From SAR202 cluster bacterium (GTDB taxonomy: Bacteria; Chloroflexota; Dehalococcoidia; Lucifugimonadales; UBA6952), in assembly GCA_009392515.1 (NCBI GenBank), contig VFGE01000031.1, forward strand, positions 604 through 64,603: 64,000 nt of DNA, read 5' to 3'. The translations under genes were made by a program, and so were the position numbers. Every line of letters begins with the position of its first letter. Positions within the stretch are counted from its first letter, which is position 1. Shown in pieces: positions 26,388 to 47,191 of this stretch. The notes under the pieces are model-generated. The model did not search any database, had not been told where the DNA came from, and saw only the letters and a program-made list of their open reading frames with translations.

Positions 26388-26943
26388 AGTATCCATAGAT
26401 ATCATATCAGAAGGTAAGTCAGGTCTTTTTGGCATTGGTGCAACAGAAGCAACCGTAAAGGTTACTCGGCTAGGAGATTCTTCCGCAGCATCAGGTACAG
26501 CAATAACATATCTAAATGAAATATTATCTTTTTTAGATGTTGATGCTTTAGCAACAATCAGAACTGTAAACAATAGTAAAAACAAAGGACCAGTTATTGA
26601 TATACAGGGTGAGGATGCTGGTTTACTTATAGGTAAAAAAGGTGAAAATCTAAGTGCATTACAATTTATATTAAATAGAATATTAAGATCTAACAGTGTC
26701 GATTCATTTGTTACGTTAGATATAGAGCAATACAAGGAAAGAAGATCGCAATCATTAAATACTTTAGCAGCTAAAGTTGCCGATAGGGTGATGAATAATA
26801 AACGTTCAATAACCTTGGAGCCGATGACAGCTTCAGAACGAAGAGTTATTCATACAGCTCTTGCAGATCATCCAGGTGTTAAAACCGAGAGTTTTGGTTC
26901 AGGGTATAACCGTAAAGTAGTGGTTATGCCAAATAACGCTTAA
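26302..26943 (+). CDS. jag: Jag/KhpB RNA-binding protein (Jag_N + KH + R3H)
   Basis: 213 aa. Domains are Jag_N (SGKTVEDAIEIALIELDVSRDEV), KH GxxG (IGKKGENLSALQ) and R3H (ERRVIHTALADHPGVKTES). It overlaps the yidC 3' end by 86 nt in the +1 frame. Confidence 0.88.
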   Translation: MRNSIKISGKTVEDAIEIALIELDVSRDEVSIDIISEGKSGLFGIGATEATVKVTRLGDSSAASGTAITYLNEILSFLDVDALATIRTVNNSKNKGPVIDIQGEDAGLLIGKKGENLSALQFILNRILRSNSVDSFVTLDIEQYKERRSQSLNTLAAKVADRVMNNKRSITLEPMTASERRVIHTALADHPGVKTESFGSGYNRKVVVMPNNA

Positions 26944-27506
26944 GAATTCTTTAGATTTAACCTGACCAATTCAATACTGTCTTTTAGATCGTGTTTTGTT
27001 TTTGGAGCAATATAATTAGGGTCATTTTCGACCTTCAATGTTACAAATATTGGTCCTGGGGTGTTTAATATAGTTTCAATGTCTAAAGTGAAATCTTCAA
27101 TATTGTCAAATTCAAACGTTTTTGCATAACCTACAGCATCAGCCATTTTTGAAAAAGAAAGTTGGCTACTTGAAGGTATCGGTTGATTTCCTGATCCTGC
27201 ATATGAACCATTCTGGACTACAAAATGGATGAAATTTTCAGGTTGAACCTCGCTAACGGTTGCTAATGAACCTAAGTTCATTAGCAAACTCCCATCGCCG
27301 TCTAAAACGATAACTTTACTGTTTGGTTTAGCTAATGCAATACCTAAACCAAGTGAGGATCCTTTACCCATACAGTCTTCAAAATATATATCCAAGTTTT
27401 GATTATTGCTAACAGAATTCCACACATGGCTACTTGATTCACAAGCAACCACAACTTCATCTTTTCGGTATTTACCAAGCTCAATAAGACAATTTTCAAT
27501 CAACAT
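26940..27506 (-). CDS. sulfopyruvate/phosphonopyruvate decarboxylase family, beta-type subunit paralog 2 (TPP-binding C-domain)
   Basis: 188 aa with the TPP motif LDGDGSLLMNLGSLATVSEVQPENFIHFVVQNG. It shares about 45-50% identity by eye with the upstream paralog over the core, including an identical EFDNIEDF. Confidence 0.7.
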   Translation of the reverse strand: MLIENCLIELGKYRKDEVVVACESSSHVWNSVSNNQNLDIYFEDCMGKGSSLGLGIALAKPNSKVIVLDGDGSLLMNLGSLATVSEVQPENFIHFVVQNGSYAGSGNQPIPSSSQLSFSKMADAVGYAKTFEFDNIEDFTLDIETILNTPGPIFVTLKVENDPNYIAPKTKHDLKDSIELVRLNLKNS

Positions 27507-27520
27507 TTGGTTTATCTATA

Positions 27521-28108
27521 TTAAAGTGTACCTAGTTCTTTTCGAAGATCTTTAATTGCGTCATTCGTAGAACGATTTCTTGGATCTCTAGTTCGTCTAC
27601 CAATTGGCTCATTTTGTATTTCAGGAACAGAATGGATATGAACAAAAATTGGACCTTCTGCTGTGAAAATTTCTTCTACCTTTCCAGCAAAGTCCTCGAT
27701 GTTATCAAATTCGTATGAAGCAGCATAACCTGCACCAGCAGCCATTTGTGAAAAATTAGCTTCATCGGCTGCTGCAATAGGTTGACCTCCAGTTACTGAA
27801 AAGTACCCATTATTAAGTACAAAATGGATCAAATTTTTTGGTTTTGCTCCAGCAATAGTCATCATTGTACCTAGGTTCATATTGAGACTGCCATCACCAT
27901 CGAAACAAACAACTTTTGTATCTGGTTGGGCTAGGGCTAAACCCATTGCAAAGTTTGATGCTTTACCCATTGCTCCGCCAACACTTACATCTCTTGATGG
28001 TTGGTCACTAGAATCTAACCATCCACGTGAACCCGTCATAGTAGGTATCGCAATCGCTTTACCTCTAAATTTTTTTATTTCTGCCATTAAATCGTCGTTA
28101 TTTATCAT
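27521..28108 (-). CDS. sulfopyruvate/phosphonopyruvate decarboxylase family, beta-type subunit paralog 1 (TPP-binding C-domain)
   Basis: 195 aa with the TPP motif FDGDGSLNMNLGTMMTIAGAKPKNLIHFVLNNG. Length and layout resemble ComE. Confidence 0.7.
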   Translation of the reverse strand: MINNDDLMAEIKKFRGKAIAIPTMTGSRGWLDSSDQPSRDVSVGGAMGKASNFAMGLALAQPDTKVVCFDGDGSLNMNLGTMMTIAGAKPKNLIHFVLNNGYFSVTGGQPIAAADEANFSQMAAGAGYAASYEFDNIEDFAGKVEEIFTAEGPIFVHIHSVPEIQNEPIGRRTRDPRNRSTNDAIKDLRKELGTL

Positions 28109-28156
28109 AGTTAACCTCGATACTAATTTTCATAAACATTTGTCTGATAAAATAAA

Positions 28157-28711
28157 TTATCCTTCTTTGATTATTTTTCTTTCTTCATCCAAATTCATTC
28201 TGTTGAATCCATGATATTCATCACCCACGAGAACTGCTACAGGTTTTTGGGTCGCTGCTGCAGTTTGAAATGCAAGTGTAATTCGATCTGCATCTCCATC
28301 ATGCTCAACTAGATAGTATTGTATTCCCCATGCATTAAGAGTTGGTTCAGTAAGTCTTGCGGCTGAGTCAGGAGTTATACCCCATCTAGTCCAGCCTCGG
28401 TACCCAATAATCATAACTATTGGTAAGTTACAATCTAATCCAAGTCCACGAATAGAATCTCCGGACTCCATCATCCCAGTATTTTGTACTAAGCAAACAG
28501 GTATTTTACCACCAACGATAACCCCTGCTGCTATTGCCATAGTTTCTGCTTCTCTTCCAACAGTGATAACTTCAATGTTAGGATCTTCTTCCATGGCGAT
28601 AAATAAATGATTAGTCTCGCTGTCAGGTAGATAAATCACATGAGTCACATTGTTTTCTTTAATTTTATCTAAGATAGTTAGAGGGCTTAACATAGCCTGT
28701 TGTTCAGTCAT
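28157..28711 (-). CDS. sulfopyruvate/phosphonopyruvate decarboxylase family, alpha-type subunit (TPP pyrimidine-binding N-domain)
   Basis: 184 aa from ATG 28711, which is preceded by GGGGAGG. The track ORF was extended to 28840. The pattern GREAETMAIAAGVIVGGKIPVCLVQNTGMMESGDSI...PIVMIIGYRG matches ComD/Ppd N-domains with the catalytic Glu. Confidence 0.75.
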   Translation of the reverse strand: MTEQQAMLSPLTILDKIKENNVTHVIYLPDSETNHLFIAMEEDPNIEVITVGREAETMAIAAGVIVGGKIPVCLVQNTGMMESGDSIRGLGLDCNLPIVMIIGYRGWTRWGITPDSAARLTEPTLNAWGIQYYLVEHDGDADRITLAFQTAAATQKPVAVLVGDEYHGFNRMNLDEERKIIKEG

Positions 28712-28877
28712 CAGAACCTCCCCATTGAGTAAAATTGCTACAGTGCTCACAATATAATAGAAATGTTTTTCTAAAGCAAGTAAATAGATGCATTTATTTT
28801 GCTTACCTACTTTGTTGTTAATATATTTAATATAATGCATAATTTATGTTGGTAATAAAAATAAGGAACTACTTAAA

Positions 28878-29982
28878 ATGGAAGAGTTAAATAATAGGTC
28901 TGTTAGTTTAGAATCAAAATTTGCAGATATAATGGTGCGTCTTTGACTTACCTAAAACAGAAGCTGAAATTGAGGCTTTACAACAGAAAACTTTAGCTGC
29001 AGACTTTTGGGATAATTCTTCTTTGGCTAAAGATGTAATGCAACGTTTAGCTGATCTAACAAATTTTGTTCAAAAGTGTCGTTCCCTCGAGTCAGATATT
29101 AGTGAATTAGTAGAATTAACTTCAATCATAGATGAGGATGATGTTGAGGTTGAGAAACAATTACTTGAAGAAATTACCAGGGTGGAAGAAGAATTATCTA
29201 TTGTAGAATTCAATTTACTCTTTTCAGGTGAGTATGACGATTCAAATTCTATACTTGCAATTCATGCTGGAGCAGGAGGTACTGAATCTCAAGATTGGTC
29301 TCAGATGTTGCTCAGGATGTATTTAAGATGGGCAGAGAAGAAAAATTATTCTGCTGAGATAATCGAGTTATCAGAAGGTGATGAAGCAGGTATCAAGAGT
29401 GTACTTATTTCCATAAAGGGACGATGGTCTTATGGGAATTTGAAATCAGAAAGAGGGGTTCATAGGTTAGTTAGAGTATCCCCGTTTGATGCTTCAAAAT
29501 CAAGACATACTTCATTTGCATTAGTTGAAGTTTTACCAGATACAGAAAAAAATGTTGATGTAACAATAGATAATGATGATTTGCGGATAGATGTTTTTCG
29601 AGCTGGAGGGCATGGAGGGCAAAATGTGCAGAAAAATTCTACAGCAATACGTATAACTCATTTACCTACTGGAGTTGTAGTCGTTTGTCAAAATGAAAGA
29701 TCACAATTACAGAATAAAGAACTCGCAATGCAAATATTGAAGGCACGATTACTAGATATAAGAATGAAAGAATTAGAGAAAGAACATTCTGAATTAAAGG
29801 GTGAACACATATCTGCAGAATGGGGAAATCAAATTAGAAGTTATGTTTTACATCCATATAAAATGGTAAAAGATCACAGAACTGGGCATGAAGATACTGA
29901 TACTAATTCTGTATTAGATGGTAATATCAATGATTTTTTACAATCATATCTGTTAAATCAAGTCTCTAATGATACTTTCTAA
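28878..29982 (+). CDS. prfB: peptide chain release factor 2, expressed via programmed +1 frameshift
   Basis: Frame 0 reads ATG 28878 ...MEELNNRSVSLESKFADIMVRL then TGA at 28944. The +1 frame from GAC 28945 continues DLPKTEAEIEALQQKTLAADFWDN... into the track ORF 29023-29982. That ORF contains the SPF tripeptide (RVSPFD) and the GGQ motif (AGGHGGQNVQK). Confidence 0.93.
28941..28947 (+). promoter_or_regulatory. RF2 autoregulatory +1 frameshift site CTT TGA C
   Basis: The exact canonical heptamer CTTTGAC is present, with an upstream GGTG that could act as an SD-like stimulator 3 nt before CTT. Confidence 0.9.
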
Positions 29983-31208: not shown

Positions 31209-32342
31209 TTAGTAAACTGGAGCTTCAATTTTAGCATCAACCTTTTTTGCAACTACTTCTTTTCCGGTTGTTTTAAATATGGTTTGATATTTTCTTGAAA
31301 GTATTCCGTAATATTGAATTAAACTTTTACCTTGTCGAGGAGTTAGTACATTGGGAATATTTTCACTGCTTATACGAATAGGTAGTATGGAAACTCTTTT
31401 TCTACCTAAGCTGTCTATATCTACCTGTGCAATACAAGAATCTCGCTCTATTGATCGAATTGCTGTTCCTCCAAATGAGAAATTCCCCAAACTGTAGAAA
31501 ATTGGTTTACCTTTGTAAATTTCTATTCCTTGGGGTTCATGAGGATGATGACCCATAATAATATCTGCTCCTGCATCTATTGCAGTATGAGCCATTTCTT
31601 CTTGATACTCTGTGACATAGCATGGAGCAATTTCTACTGGTACACCTAAAGATCGAGCATTACCCCTTGCAGTTTGTCCCCAGTGCCAACTAATTATAAC
31701 TATATCTGAATTAATTTTTGCCCTACGTACATCTTCTTTCATTACTTCTAAATGTTCTGGATTAGCCCAACTAATTATTCTTGGAATTGAACCTGGTTGA
31801 TATGGGGCATTATATGAAGCTTCGTATGCGGTTTGTGCATTTACTACTGCACATCCAGGTTTGTTTTCTCCTGCGGGAAATGTTAAAGGAACATAACAAG
31901 AGGTGTATGATAAAAATCCAATTTTTCTGCCCTTAGAGTCAAGATAAACAGGTTTATGTGCTTCATCTATATTCATCCCAGAACCAGCATGCGGTATTTT
32001 TGCTTTATCTAAAGCATTGAGAGTTTGAATAAGGCCTTCCTCTCCATAATCCATGGTATGGTTATTCGCAGTAGAAACAGCATCTACATTTGCGAATTTC
32101 AATATTTTTTCAATTGGACCAGAGGGCATTCGCACATGTCCTCCACTTCCTGATTCTGTTTTACCTGGAAGAGTAGATACTGATTCATCACATATTACTC
32201 CTTCGACATTTGCTAAGGTGATGTCACCATTTTGCAGAATTGGTAAAGCGTTCCCAAAGGCAATTTCCGGATCAATAGCTTCTGTAATTATTACATCTCC
32301 TACCATTACTATACGTAAGGTCGAATCAGATTTTTTAGGCAT
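31209..32342 (-). CDS. CapA-family metallophosphoesterase-fold protein (PGA_cap)
   Basis: 377 aa with motifs VMVGDV, ANVEGVI, STANNHTMDYGEEGL, HAGSGMNIDEA and GHHPHEPQGIEIYKGKPIFYSLGNFSFG. Confidence 0.85.
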   Translation of the reverse strand: MPKKSDSTLRIVMVGDVIITEAIDPEIAFGNALPILQNGDITLANVEGVICDESVSTLPGKTESGSGGHVRMPSGPIEKILKFANVDAVSTANNHTMDYGEEGLIQTLNALDKAKIPHAGSGMNIDEAHKPVYLDSKGRKIGFLSYTSCYVPLTFPAGENKPGCAVVNAQTAYEASYNAPYQPGSIPRIISWANPEHLEVMKEDVRRAKINSDIVIISWHWGQTARGNARSLGVPVEIAPCYVTEYQEEMAHTAIDAGADIIMGHHPHEPQGIEIYKGKPIFYSLGNFSFGGTAIRSIERDSCIAQVDIDSLGRKRVSILPIRISSENIPNVLTPRQGKSLIQYYGILSRKYQTIFKTTGKEVVAKKVDAKIEAPVY

Positions 32343-45604: not shown

Positions 45605-46333
45605 TGTTGTTAGTAAAGTTAATGATGCTCCAGTCATTATTATTAAAATAATGATTCGCGTAAAAAGTTGTTGATTAATTATTGGTAGAATATTTTTCCC
45701 AATAAAATATCCAATTAACACTGATGGTATGAGGAATAAATTTGCAGCTAATGTATCACGTGTTATAAAACCACTTATAAAAAGTGATACCACAGTAACT
45801 GTATCAATGATAGAAAAATAAAGTGCTAGATTGTTTCTAAAGTCTAATTTCTCCCATTTTTGGTTGATGAGAAAAATAGTAATTGGTGGTCCAGATAAGC
45901 CCGAGGTACTCACTAATATACCACTAAAAAATCCAGCGAACATGGAGGTTAATTTCTCCCGTTTAATAATTATTGTTTTTCCTGTAAAAAGAAATAAAGC
46001 AGCTATTAAAATTATAATAGATATTATTATTTTTAATACGTACATATCTAAATTGGATAGTATGATAATTCCCAGTGGTATTCCTAAAATTGCAGAACCA
46101 GCGATAGGGAGAATTTTGTCTGGTTTTAAATATTGTTTATTTTCAATAGCGATAATATAGTCATTAATTAAAACTAAAGGCATGATTATTGGTACAATAA
46201 TTGTTAAATCTAGTACTGGCAAAAGCAAGGGCGTAGAGACCAATGCAAACCCAAAGCCAACAGTGGTTTTCACGGTTGATGCAAATAAAATAACTAAAAT
46301 TAGAATAATAATGATGTTGGTTTCTAATAACAT
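45593..46333 (-). CDS. TauE/SafE-family anion (sulfite-type) permease
   Basis: 246 aa with about 8 TM segments and duplicated 4-TM halves carrying G-rich motifs (TTVGFGFALV and SGLSGPP). Confidence 0.8.
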   Translation of the reverse strand: MLLETNIIIILILVILFASTVKTTVGFGFALVSTPLLLPVLDLTIIVPIIMPLVLINDYIIAIENKQYLKPDKILPIAGSAILGIPLGIIILSNLDMYVLKIIISIIILIAALFLFTGKTIIIKREKLTSMFAGFFSGILVSTSGLSGPPITIFLINQKWEKLDFRNNLALYFSIIDTVTVVSLFISGFITRDTLAANLFLIPSVLIGYFIGKNILPIINQQLFTRIIILIIMTGASLTLLTTLRG

Positions 46334-46408: not shown

Positions 46409-47191
46409 ATGGATATATTGCTTTATTTAGTGGTTTTATTATTAACTTTTCTTGGTGGATGGTTGTCTGGCTTATTTGGTGTTAGTGGGGCTGTAGTAAC
46501 TGTCCCATTTCTTTTGTATGGTCCGCAAATTCTCGGTATGCCAGCAATAGATATCAAGCAAGTTATGGCTATATCTCTGGTTCAAGGCCTAGTATCTAGT
46601 TTTACCGGGGCATTAGTTTATAAAAAGAGTGGTTTAATTGATAGAACTATTGTCATTTGGGGAGGTATGCTAGTTGCTGCAGGAGGTTTAATTGGTGGTA
46701 TTCTTTCTAAGTGGTCACCGGATACACTCTTATTATTTATTTTTGGTTCAATGTCTACAACAGCTGTTATTTTAATGCTATCGAATTCCGGAGAAAGTAT
46801 AGAAGATAAGGATAATAAATCTACGAATTATAAGATTTTAGCAATATTTTTTCCTGAAGGATTAATGGCTGGTATGGTTGGTGTTGGAGGTGGTTTTTTA
46901 ACAGTTCCAATTTTGAATAGACTAATGAAAATCCCACTACGAAACGCAATTGCGAGTTCTCTTGCGATGACATTTTTTGCAGTTTTTGCTGGATTATTAG
47001 GTAAAATTATTACTTTTCAGGTACCATTTATCCTTTCATTATTAGCAGTGGCAGGAGGAATACCTGGAGCAAAGTTAGGAACATTTGTAAATTCCAAATT
47101 AACTTTGAAAAATTTACGTTTTGGATTTGTTATATTATTGACGGTAATTTCTATAAGAATATGGTTCGATGTAGCAACAGCTATACTATAG
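46409..47191 (+). CDS. TauE/SafE-family anion (sulfite-type) permease
   Basis: 260 aa with GLFGVSGAVVTVP and GMVGVGGGFLTVP repeat motifs characteristic of the family. Confidence 0.82.
   Translation: MDILLYLVVLLLTFLGGWLSGLFGVSGAVVTVPFLLYGPQILGMPAIDIKQVMAISLVQGLVSSFTGALVYKKSGLIDRTIVIWGGMLVAAGGLIGGILSKWSPDTLLLFIFGSMSTTAVILMLSNSGESIEDKDNKSTNYKILAIFFPEGLMAGMVGVGGGFLTVPILNRLMKIPLRNAIASSLAMTFFAVFAGLLGKIITFQVPFILSLLAVAGGIPGAKLGTFVNSKLTLKNLRFGFVILLTVISIRIWFDVATAIL

What the first reader, a model, noticed from the sequence alone, without database searches (positions are those of the whole stretch)
26940..28711. Split TPP decarboxylase with one alpha and two diverged beta subunit genes (alpha-beta-beta')
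Sulfopyruvate decarboxylase (ComDE), and split phosphonopyruvate decarboxylases in at least some organisms, are built from one N-domain (alpha) and one TPP-binding (beta) polypeptide. Here a three-gene operon encodes one alpha (catalytic-Glu region REAE...QNTGMMES) followed by two beta paralogs. The paralogs are about 45-50% identical over the core by eye. Both retain the GDGS...N(N/Q)G TPP-Mg motif and an identical EFDNIEDF block. I know of no described alpha/beta/beta' arrangement. It could give a hetero-oligomer with two non-equivalent active sites, or two alternative enzymes sharing one alpha. A ComA-family gene lies 1.7 kb away, and no PEP mutase is present, which favours sulfopyruvate over phosphonopyruvate as substrate.
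Basis: partly seen in the sequence, partly recalled or inferred. Interest (0 to 1): 0.55.

Follow-up and report, generated by a model that had tools for sequence, protein, structure and literature searches.

The report
One alpha, two beta thiamine decarboxylase
A marine Dehalococcoidia bacterium keeps and appears to transcribe an operon for a split thiamine-dependent decarboxylase with one pyrimidine-binding subunit and two old, intact cofactor-binding subunits. This layout recurs across Dehalococcoidia, I found no description of it, and its substrate is unknown.

Summary
On the minus strand lie alpha (28711-28157, TPP_enzyme_N), beta (28108-27521) and beta' (27506-26940, both TPP_enzyme_C).

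- **Both betas look intact.** Both keep GDG-X26-N. Beta' keeps every invariant and near-invariant family residue and is under strong purifying selection (dN/dS 0.03-0.04), so it is not a decaying copy.
- **The duplication is old.** Beta and beta' fall in two separately supported clades, and a within-genus duplication is rejected (p-AU 0.009).
- **The module recurs.** The same tightly spaced alpha-beta-beta' module occurs in distant Chloroflexota with 60-62% GC. At the syntenic yidC-jag locus of another family, a beta'-clade protein is the only beta.
- **Tandem betas are common in this lineage.** They follow a single alpha in 10 of 41 genomes of the order and in 19 of 80 best public loci. All of these are Chloroflexota, and the tandems arose more than once.
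- **It appears to be transcribed.** Metatranscriptome contigs bridge both gene junctions.
- **It is not ComDE or Ppd.** All three proteins score far below those cut-offs. The nearby "ComA" is also below its cut-off and lies in another transcription unit. ComB, an Xsc equivalog and a PEP mutase equivalog were not found in the genome. Sulfopyruvate is therefore only a guess.

I read this as a new variant of a known kind. The scan had already noted the same layout in two other genomes, probably of the same genus, and a related four-gene module with a motif-less beta.

The parts
28157..28711 (-). alpha: PYR-domain subunit, 184 aa, catalytic Glu54 in GREAE
   Evidence: PF02776 scores 40.1 bits. Glu54 is invariant in 47 alpha sequences. 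dN/dS is 0-0.018 against two species of the same genus.
27521..28108 (-). beta: PP-domain subunit, 195 aa, canonical motifs GGAMG / GDG / NNG / TGGQP
   Evidence: PF02775 scores 68.4 bits. Motif table. It belongs to the b1 clade with L048, L125 and L017 first betas (SH-aLRT 96). dN/dS is 0.004-0.012.
26940..27506 (-). beta': second PP-domain subunit, 188 aa, motifs EDCMG / GDG / QNG / SGNQP, on a long branch
   Evidence: PF02775 scores 57.5 bits. It keeps all invariant and near-invariant family residues. It belongs to the beta' clade (SH-aLRT 99). dN/dS is 0.028-0.042. The modelled alpha-beta' interface scores ipSAE 0.88 against 0.00 for controls.
28712..28729 (-). short leader with the Shine-Dalgarno GGGGAGG (28717-28723); likely transcript 5' end near 28729
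   Evidence: Sequence. RNA-library contigs of four runs from three studies end at 28693-28729, and in three of the four runs no contig was laid upstream of them. This is a weak hint only.
27507..27520 (-). 14-nt beta/beta' spacer without a Shine-Dalgarno-like motif or a small ORF
   Evidence: Sequence. Orthologous modules have 11-15 nt here. The other Dehalococcoidia module type has 180-1090 nt here, in most loci with a 2-TM microprotein ORF.

Best explanation
The operon encodes a split thiamine-diphosphate-dependent 2-oxoacid decarboxylase of the ComDE/Ppd superfamily. It belongs to an unnamed sister family, not to ComDE or Ppd themselves. A single PYR subunit (alpha, catalytic Glu54) serves two anciently diverged PP subunits, beta and beta'. 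Each PP subunit keeps its own ThDP-Mg site (Asp of GDG plus Asn).

Each active site forms at an alpha/beta or alpha/beta' interface, so the cell makes two kinds of active site from three genes. In this genus the two kinds differ in two loops that I place near the cofactor/substrate pocket (GGAMG to EDCMG, and TGGQP to SGNQP). The two sites therefore probably differ in substrate or kinetics.

**Shown:**
- the gene anatomy;
- intact motifs in both betas;
- purifying selection on all three genes;
- the age and orthology of both beta clades;
- recurrence of the module;
- presence of RNA-library contigs that bridge both gene junctions.

**Inferred:**
- that both betas assemble with alpha;
- that both are catalytic;
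- that the substrate is an anionic 3-substituted pyruvate.

I cannot decide whether beta and beta' sit in one mixed particle (alpha2-beta-beta', about 40%) or in separate alpha2beta2 and alpha2beta'2 enzymes (about 35%).
For: - **Domains and motifs:**
- **Selection:** dN/dS is 0.00-0.04 for all three genes, like the neighbouring yidC and jag.
- **Age of the duplication:** beta and beta' lie in separate supported clades (96 and 99 SH-aLRT). Holding them together as a recent duplicate is rejected (p-AU 0.0086).
- **The same module elsewhere:** alpha (184 aa), beta (194-195 aa) and beta' (192-193 aa) occur in contigs of 60-62% GC. Identities to the window are alpha 73-83%, beta 56-65% and beta' 45-54%. 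The beta-beta' spacer is 11 nt in four of them, 57 nt in one and 532 nt in L048.
- **Beta' as sole beta:** at the syntenic rnpA-yidC-jag locus of another family, a beta'-clade protein is the only beta next to alpha. That clade can therefore presumably serve as the only PP subunit.
- **Modelled alpha-beta' pair:** score 0.88, best of 3 controls 0.00.
  - The mark was reached by 58 of 80 solved complexes and by 2 of 110 mismatched pairs.
  - The runs agree in at least 95% of contacts, and the partner's pLDDT is at least 87.
  - My own alignments were used, so these counts hold only roughly.
  - A like complex, RhiEF (9IZ3), is solved, so the pass may reflect likeness only.
  - The interface includes the alpha Glu54 helix and beta' residues 44-46.
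- **Transcription:** contigs from RNA libraries of three runs in two studies bridge both gene junctions.
Against: - No biochemical data exist for any member of this sister family.
- The HMM scores are about equidistant from ComE, Ppd and PRK06163, and all are below cut-off, so the substrate is unconstrained.
- Beta' has no Shine-Dalgarno motif, and in this genus it has lost the basic C-terminal tail kept by its orthologs. It could therefore be made at a lower level or assemble differently.
- RNA-library contigs can contain DNA and give no expression levels.
- A relationship of beta' to the motif-less second betas of the other module type is not rejected (p-AU 0.11).
Confidence: 0.62

Rival explanations
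1. Obligate mixed hetero-oligomer: alpha2-beta-beta' (or a higher multiple) is the only functional particle. It would have two non-equivalent active sites that work together, for example as alternating or half-of-the-sites catalysis hard-wired into two genes.
For: - Beta and beta' are 11-15 nt apart and co-inherited with a single alpha in four deeply diverged lineages: this genus, L125-L127, and the P0010 and P0014 contigs.
- In the other Dehalococcoidia module type, the second beta has lost GDG (CDA, SGT) yet is conserved. In the loci examined it never occurs without a canonical beta beside it. This argues for betas that work only in company.
Against: - A beta'-clade protein is the sole beta at the syntenic locus in L023, L046 and L047, so a beta partner is not obligatory for that clade.
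- I had no way to test stoichiometry or beta-beta' contacts here.
Confidence: 0.4
2. Two alternative isoenzymes, alpha2beta2 and alpha2beta'2, share alpha but act on different 2-oxoacids. This would be a cheap way for a 1.55-Mb genome to widen its substrate range.
For: - Both betas are fully competent by sequence.
- Tandem canonical-canonical beta duplications arose repeatedly: L017, L018, L019, L122 and L028. A single origin of the second betas is rejected (p-AU 3.7e-10).
- Relatives carry up to 7 beta paralogs per genome, which points to diversification by paralogy.
- The two betas differ in two loops that I place near the active site.
Against: - Isoenzymes for different substrates would more often be regulated apart, whereas here the two betas are only 14 nt apart in one operon.
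- Nothing prevents mixed assembly if both betas bind the same alpha surface.
Confidence: 0.35
3. It is an authentic sulfopyruvate decarboxylase (ComDE). It would act with the nearby ComA-like gene in a sulfolactate or sulfopyruvate pathway.
For: - The best or near-best NCBIfam hits include ComD and ComE.
- The genome has three Ldh_2 (ComC-family) dehydrogenases and six TauE-family permeases.
- A ComA-family gene lies 1.7 kb away.
Against: - Scores are 86 against a cut-off of 148 for alpha, and 95 and 105 against 221.5 for the betas.
- The ComA-like gene scores 122 against 280. It lies in another transcription unit beyond prfB and is not linked to the module in the five relatives checked.
- ComB was not found, and there is no Xsc equivalog (378 against 676 bits).
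Confidence: 0.2
4. Beta' is a non-catalytic or decaying duplicate.
For: - Beta' sits on a long branch (0.7-0.8 substitutions per site).
- It carries unusual residues (E43-D44 and S105/N107) at otherwise conserved positions.
- It has lost the C-terminal basic tail and has no Shine-Dalgarno motif.
Against: - dN/dS is 0.03-0.04.
- GDG and the Mg-ligand Asn are intact, and all invariant family residues are kept.
- The unusual residues are themselves conserved at 85-93% identity in marine relatives.
- RNA-library contigs cover the gene.
Confidence: 0.05

Closest known systems
RhiEF, heteromeric phosphonopyruvate decarboxylase of Bacillus subtilis (PDB 9IZ3/9IZ4; reviewed in PMC12141560)
   Same: - Separate PYR (about 180 aa) and PP (about 186 aa) polypeptides encoded by adjacent genes.
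- It is the best PDB match of all three proteins: E 7e-10 for alpha, 2.9e-18 for beta and 1.7e-16 for beta'.
- It shares the xGxMG, GDGS, xNG and TGGQ motifs.
   Different: - RhiEF has one beta only and is described as using a heterotetrameric interface.
- It sits in a phosphonate cluster, a pathway that begins with PEP mutase (my own knowledge of the pathway). This genome has no PEP mutase equivalog.
- The Ppd model TIGR03297 is not reached.
ComDE sulfopyruvate decarboxylase of Methanocaldococcus jannaschii (Graupner et al. 2000, cited in PMC12141560)
   Same: A split alpha/beta ThDP decarboxylase. It is the top NCBIfam hit for alpha and among the top three for both betas.
   Different: - Scores are well below the equivalog cut-offs.
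- ComDE has one beta only.
- There is no ComB here, the ComA-like gene is below its cut-off, and no coenzyme M pathway context is present.
Four-gene Dehalococcoidia module seen in this scan (notes e1-2252321 and others): alpha, canonical beta, a 2-TM microprotein, and a second beta without the cofactor motif
   Same: - The same enzyme superfamily and the same lineage.
- One alpha followed by two beta paralogs.
- I re-found it in L020, L021, L053, L082, L105-L107, L110, L114, L124 and others.
   Different: - In the window both betas keep GDG...N.
- The spacer is 14 nt, with no microprotein ORF.
- Beta and beta' fall in other clades than that module's two betas, although a link between beta' and the motif-less clade is not rejected (p-AU 0.11).

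Membership tests
Split ThDP-dependent decarboxylase (ComDE/Ppd superfamily) | PYR-domain polypeptide with the catalytic glutamate | tested here: met
   PF02776 scores 40.1 against a cut-off of 26.8. Glu54 is invariant in 47 alphas.
Split ThDP-dependent decarboxylase (ComDE/Ppd superfamily) | Separate PP-domain polypeptide with the GDG-X(25-30)-N ThDP-Mg motif, encoded next to alpha | tested here: met
   Both beta and beta' have PF02775 above cut-off and GDG-X26-N. The three genes are adjacent and co-oriented.
Sulfopyruvate decarboxylase ComDE (TIGR03845 / TIGR03846 equivalogs) | Score at or above the curated equivalog cut-offs | tested here: not met
   Alpha scores 86.1 against 147.95. Beta scores 94.8 and beta' 104.6 against 221.5.
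Sulfopyruvate decarboxylase ComDE (TIGR03845 / TIGR03846 equivalogs) | Pathway partners ComA, ComB and ComC in the genome | tested here: not met
   The ComA-like gene scores 122 against 280. ComB (PF04029) was not found in a 98%-complete genome. Three Ldh_2 genes are present but none lies next to either alpha-beta locus.
Sulfopyruvate decarboxylase ComDE (TIGR03845 / TIGR03846 equivalogs) | Decarboxylates 3-sulfopyruvate | not testable with these tools
   This needs an enzyme assay.
Phosphonopyruvate decarboxylase (TIGR03297; RhiEF type) | Score at or above the cut-off of 312.5 (the model covers the fused protein) | tested here: not met
   Alpha scores 44.9 and beta 119.5, or beta' 116.7. Even summed, these are below 312.5.
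Phosphonopyruvate decarboxylase (TIGR03297; RhiEF type) | PEP mutase in the genome to supply phosphonopyruvate | tested here: not met
   The best TIGR02320 hit scores 116 bits against a cut-off of 319.55.
Dehalococcoidia four-gene module with a motif-less second beta (scan-internal, unpublished) | A 2-TM microprotein ORF between the betas, and a second beta lacking GDG | tested here: not met
   The spacer is 14 nt with no ORF, and beta' has GDG/QNG.

The most novel reading that the evidence does not exclude
The module builds a single asymmetric ThDP enzyme, alpha2-beta-beta', with two chemically different active sites in one particle. Together with the related Dehalococcoidia modules whose second beta has lost the cofactor motif, it would document a natural series. 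The series would run from a symmetric split ThDP enzyme, through a two-site heteromer, to an enzyme with a dedicated pseudo-subunit. As far as I know and could find, no ThDP decarboxylase with non-equivalent PP subunits has been described.
Probability: 0.3. Interest if true: 0.7.

Novelty: new variant of a known kind. Interest (0 to 1): 0.45.

Why it matters
Split ComDE/RhiEF-type enzymes are regarded as the ancestral form of ThDP enzymes, and only alpha-beta pairs have been characterised. A conserved operon with one PYR subunit and two competent PP subunits bears on two questions:

- how subunit duplication creates new specificity, or built-in active-site asymmetry, in ThDP enzymes;
- how streamlined marine Dehalococcoidia diversify 2-oxoacid catabolism.

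It also warns against automatic annotation. Some sources label members of this family as sulfopyruvate or phosphonopyruvate decarboxylase, although none of those tested here meets those families' cut-offs.

Tried and rejected
- **Joint tree with authentic ComE, Ppd and RhiF.** No tool gave me those sequences, so I used the NCBIfam cut-offs instead.
- **The search for related loci with a 12-sequence alignment that included motif-less betas.** It failed for lack of a conserved stretch. It worked after I removed them.
- **First attempt to fetch 20 regions at once.** It gave a machine error, so I split the request.
- **Promoter and terminator scan of 26700-29100.** Six promoter-like sites were found against 7.4 expected, and no terminators. 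This was uninformative.
- **Gene-neighbourhood clustering for functional clues.**
  - For the window-type module, only housekeeping synteny (rnpA, PQQ-propeller, yidC, jag) recurs.
  - An MFS transporter and a luciferase-like monooxygenase lie upstream in L125-L127 and P0010. Those contigs are close kin, so I did not count this.
- **Is alpha more conserved where it serves two betas?**
  - The raw contrast was strong: alpha was more conserved than beta in 98% of ABB pairs against 34% of AB pairs.
  - It mostly vanished when I restricted the comparison to the same alpha family and matched beta divergence.
  - The pairs are also not independent. I did not use this as evidence.
- **RNA depth.** Depth figures from contigs cannot rank the three genes or give levels.
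- **Literature.**
  - No paper links these enzyme names to Chloroflexota or SAR202, or describes extra beta subunits.
  - The RhiEF structure paper (Nakamura 2024) is not held.
  - PDB 9U8Q-9U8S, another split ThDP enzyme, has no paper in the library.
- **Gene conversion as the cause of the shared EFDNIEDF block.** Rejected, because all six fully shared codons (D-N-I-E-D-F) differ at third positions.
Full report
**1. Observation**

The window has about 33% GC. It comes from a 1.55-Mb, 98%-complete genome. Named near relatives are marine Dehalococcoidia MAGs.

On the minus strand, three ORFs follow one another:
- alpha, 28711-28157, 184 aa;
- beta, 28108-27521, 195 aa;
- beta', 27506-26940, 188 aa.

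Pfam places alpha in TPP_enzyme_N and both betas in TPP_enzyme_C, all above gathering scores. Beta and beta' are 37% identical overall and about 48% identical in the core.

Both betas carry GDGS and, 26 residues later, the Mg-ligand Asn (NNG in beta, QNG in beta'). They also share EFDNIEDF. All six fully shared codons of that block (D-N-I-E-D-F) differ at synonymous positions. It is therefore conserved as protein, not copied by gene conversion.

Alpha and beta have Shine-Dalgarno motifs (GGGGAGG and GAGG). Beta' follows beta after 14 nt and has none.

**2. Is beta' alive?**

- Against the two other species of the genus that carry the whole module, dN/dS is 0-0.018 for alpha, 0.004-0.012 for beta and 0.028-0.042 for beta'. 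The neighbouring yidC gives 0.04-0.06 and jag 0.02-0.03.
- In a 58-sequence alignment, beta' keeps all 11 invariant and 18 near-invariant residues.
- Its departures are E43-D44 where most relatives have xG before the C/A-M-G, and SGNQP for TGGQP. Marine relatives at 85-93% identity share these changes.
- Met46 corresponds to the hydrophobic residue that holds ThDP in its V shape in other ThDP enzymes. The loop after the Asn corresponds by position to the segment that carries active-site residues in benzoylformate and pyruvate decarboxylases. Both statements rest on my own knowledge of those enzymes plus position counting. The HMMER alignment to BFD puts a gap there, so the second is inference only.
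- A two-chain model of alpha with beta' passed: score 0.88, best of 3 controls 0.00.
  - The mark was reached by 58 of 80 solved complexes and by 2 of 110 mismatched pairs.
  - The runs agree in at least 95% of contacts, and the partner's pLDDT is at least 87.
  - My own alignments were used, so these counts hold only roughly.
  - The RhiEF complex is solved, so the pass may show likeness only.
  - The interface holds the Glu54 helix of alpha and residues 44-46 of beta'.

**3. Transcription**

Contigs from metatranscriptome libraries bridge the alpha/beta junction (runs X7, X14, X17) and the beta/beta' junction (the same three runs, from two studies). Contigs of four runs from three studies end at 28693-28729, just upstream of the alpha start codon. 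In three of those four runs no contig was laid beyond that point.

RNA libraries can hold DNA, and contigs give no expression levels. I count this as moderate support for one transcript and weak support for a 5' end near 28729.

**4. Family**

NCBIfam ranks ComD, ComE, Ppd and the unnamed PRK06163 model on top, but all lie far below their cut-offs. Representatives of every other clade I met show the same pattern.

The nearest solved structure is RhiEF, the split phosphonopyruvate decarboxylase (PMC12141560).

At genome level:
- there is no PEP mutase equivalog;
- there is no Xsc equivalog among eight full-length acetolactate-synthase-like paralogs;
- ComB was not found;
- there are three Ldh_2 dehydrogenases and six TauE permeases.

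The ComA-like gene 1.7 kb away scores 122 bits against a cut-off of 280. It lies beyond prfB, which runs on the other strand, and it is not linked to the module in the five relatives checked.

The enzyme therefore belongs to an unnamed sister family of ComDE/Ppd, and the substrate is open.

**5. Distribution**

Within the order, of 41 genomes:
- 33 have alpha homologs, and up to 7 beta paralogs occur per genome;
- 10 carry one alpha followed by two betas, or three in one genome.

Among the 80 best loci from GTDB species representatives:
- 19 are alpha-beta-beta or alpha-beta-beta-beta, all Chloroflexota;
- one more locus has two betas at a contig start, where an alpha could be cut off;
- the Binatia, proteobacterial, Acidoferrales and other non-Chloroflexota loci are alpha-beta only.

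Motif tabulation and trees show at least two module types.

*Type I* has a canonical first beta (one clade, SH-aLRT 99). Its second beta has CDA, SGT or CDS for GDG, EDA for xNG, DCMD for GAMG and TDGxP for TGGQP. In most loci a 50-90-aa two-helix membrane ORF lies between the two betas. Earlier notes of this scan had already described this module.

*Type II* is the window's type. The two betas are tightly spaced, both are canonical, and there is no microprotein ORF. Its members are:
- this genus;
- a groundwater Chloroflexi MAG, L048, with 62% GC. It has a wider 532-nt spacer, a partly altered second beta (TDG for GDG) and a third beta. Its alpha is 83% identical to the window's;
- a group of 60-61% GC contigs (L125-L127, P0010, P0014), with alpha 73-75%, beta 56-58% and beta' 53-54% identical, and an 11-nt spacer;
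- P0006 and P0016.

In the final tree, the window's beta sits in a clade of first betas (SH-aLRT 96). Beta' sits in a separate clade (SH-aLRT 99) that holds all these second betas.

AU tests gave three results:
- holding beta and beta' together as a recent duplicate is rejected (p-AU 0.0086);
- a single origin of all second and third betas is rejected (p-AU 3.7e-10);
- a link between beta' and the motif-less clade is not rejected (p-AU 0.11).

**6. Synteny**

The module lies beside rnpA, a PQQ-propeller gene, yidC and jag in this genus and in L017, L023, L046 and L047. The neighbours are housekeeping genes and say nothing about function.

The comparison is still informative:
- L017 has alpha, a first-clade beta and a third-type beta;
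- L023, L046 and L047 have alpha plus only a beta'-clade protein with fully canonical motifs.

A beta'-clade subunit can therefore presumably be the sole PP partner of alpha.

**7. Reading**

Both betas look competent, both are old, and they are co-inherited with one alpha. The operon thus yields two kinds of alpha/PP active site. Nothing here decides whether they share one particle or form two enzymes:
- tight spacing, deep co-inheritance and the existence of motif-less second betas elsewhere favour mixed particles;
- the sole-beta' loci and repeated tandem duplications of canonical betas favour interchangeable specificity subunits.

I put these at about 40% and 35%. A decaying copy is excluded for practical purposes.

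**8. Novelty**

I found no description of a ThDP decarboxylase with one PYR and two PP subunits. Public records name these proteins generically or, in some sources, as sulfopyruvate or phosphonopyruvate decarboxylase.

The scan had already flagged the same layout in two other genomes, probably of the same genus, from first-stage notes alone (e1-5051527, e1-2328820). It had also flagged type I modules elsewhere.

I rate this a new variant of a known kind, of moderate interest. The claim rests on gene anatomy and evolution, not on biochemistry.

Noticed in passing
L020 8290-9742; L021 8862-10303; L053, L082, L105-L107, L110, L114, L124 (loci from relatives): A second module type. It has alpha, a canonical beta, a 50-90-aa ORF with two hydrophobic helices (recurring G-F-[WY]-L-L ... 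IP-x-G-[MLI]-[WY] pattern), and a second beta. In that second beta GDG is CDA/SGT/CDS, xNG is EDA, GAMG is DCMD and TGGQP is TDGxP. The altered motifs are themselves conserved, and in the loci examined this beta never occurs without a canonical beta beside it.
   Followed up: partly
L028 8181-9947; L030, L031, L072, L076, L077, L085, L086, L116: A clade of betas (FGAMG, xDG) with no alpha hit nearby. The gene directly upstream, where alpha would be, is a UbiX/Dfp-type flavoprotein (PF02441, 122 bits). UbiD and UbiA genes lie nearby in most of these loci.
   Followed up: partly
own genome, contig C14:13874-14985 (L006 7866-8995): A second alpha-beta pair in the same genome. Its beta has SEG in place of GDG, a variant shared by a supported clade of five. 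It lies beside an AlaX-like editing domain, an EamA transporter, ThiD and a THI5/NMT1-type binding protein with an ABC permease (thiamine-precursor salvage genes).
   Followed up: partly
window 26940-26943: The stop codons of beta' (minus strand) and jag (plus strand) overlap in the palindrome TTAA. The two convergent genes therefore leave no room for a terminator between them.
   Followed up: partly
window 28879-29982: prfB (release factor 2) has the classic +1 frameshift site CTT TGA C at about 28940-28946. The ORF list shows only the downstream 319-aa part. This is ordinary and well known.
   Followed up: partly
window 45632-46303 (-) and 46436-47158 (+): Two divergent TauE/SafE-family anion permease genes. 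The 1.55-Mb genome has six such genes in all, along with eight full-length acetolactate-synthase-like ThDP enzymes and three Ldh_2 dehydrogenases. That is a marked paralog load for so small a genome.
   Followed up: no
metagenome contig of P0006 (no DNA held): One contig carries alpha, two betas, a PGA_cap (CapA-like) gene and then two more betas. A PGA_cap gene also lies 2.5 kb from the window's module (31209-32342), next to the ComA-like gene.
   Followed up: no
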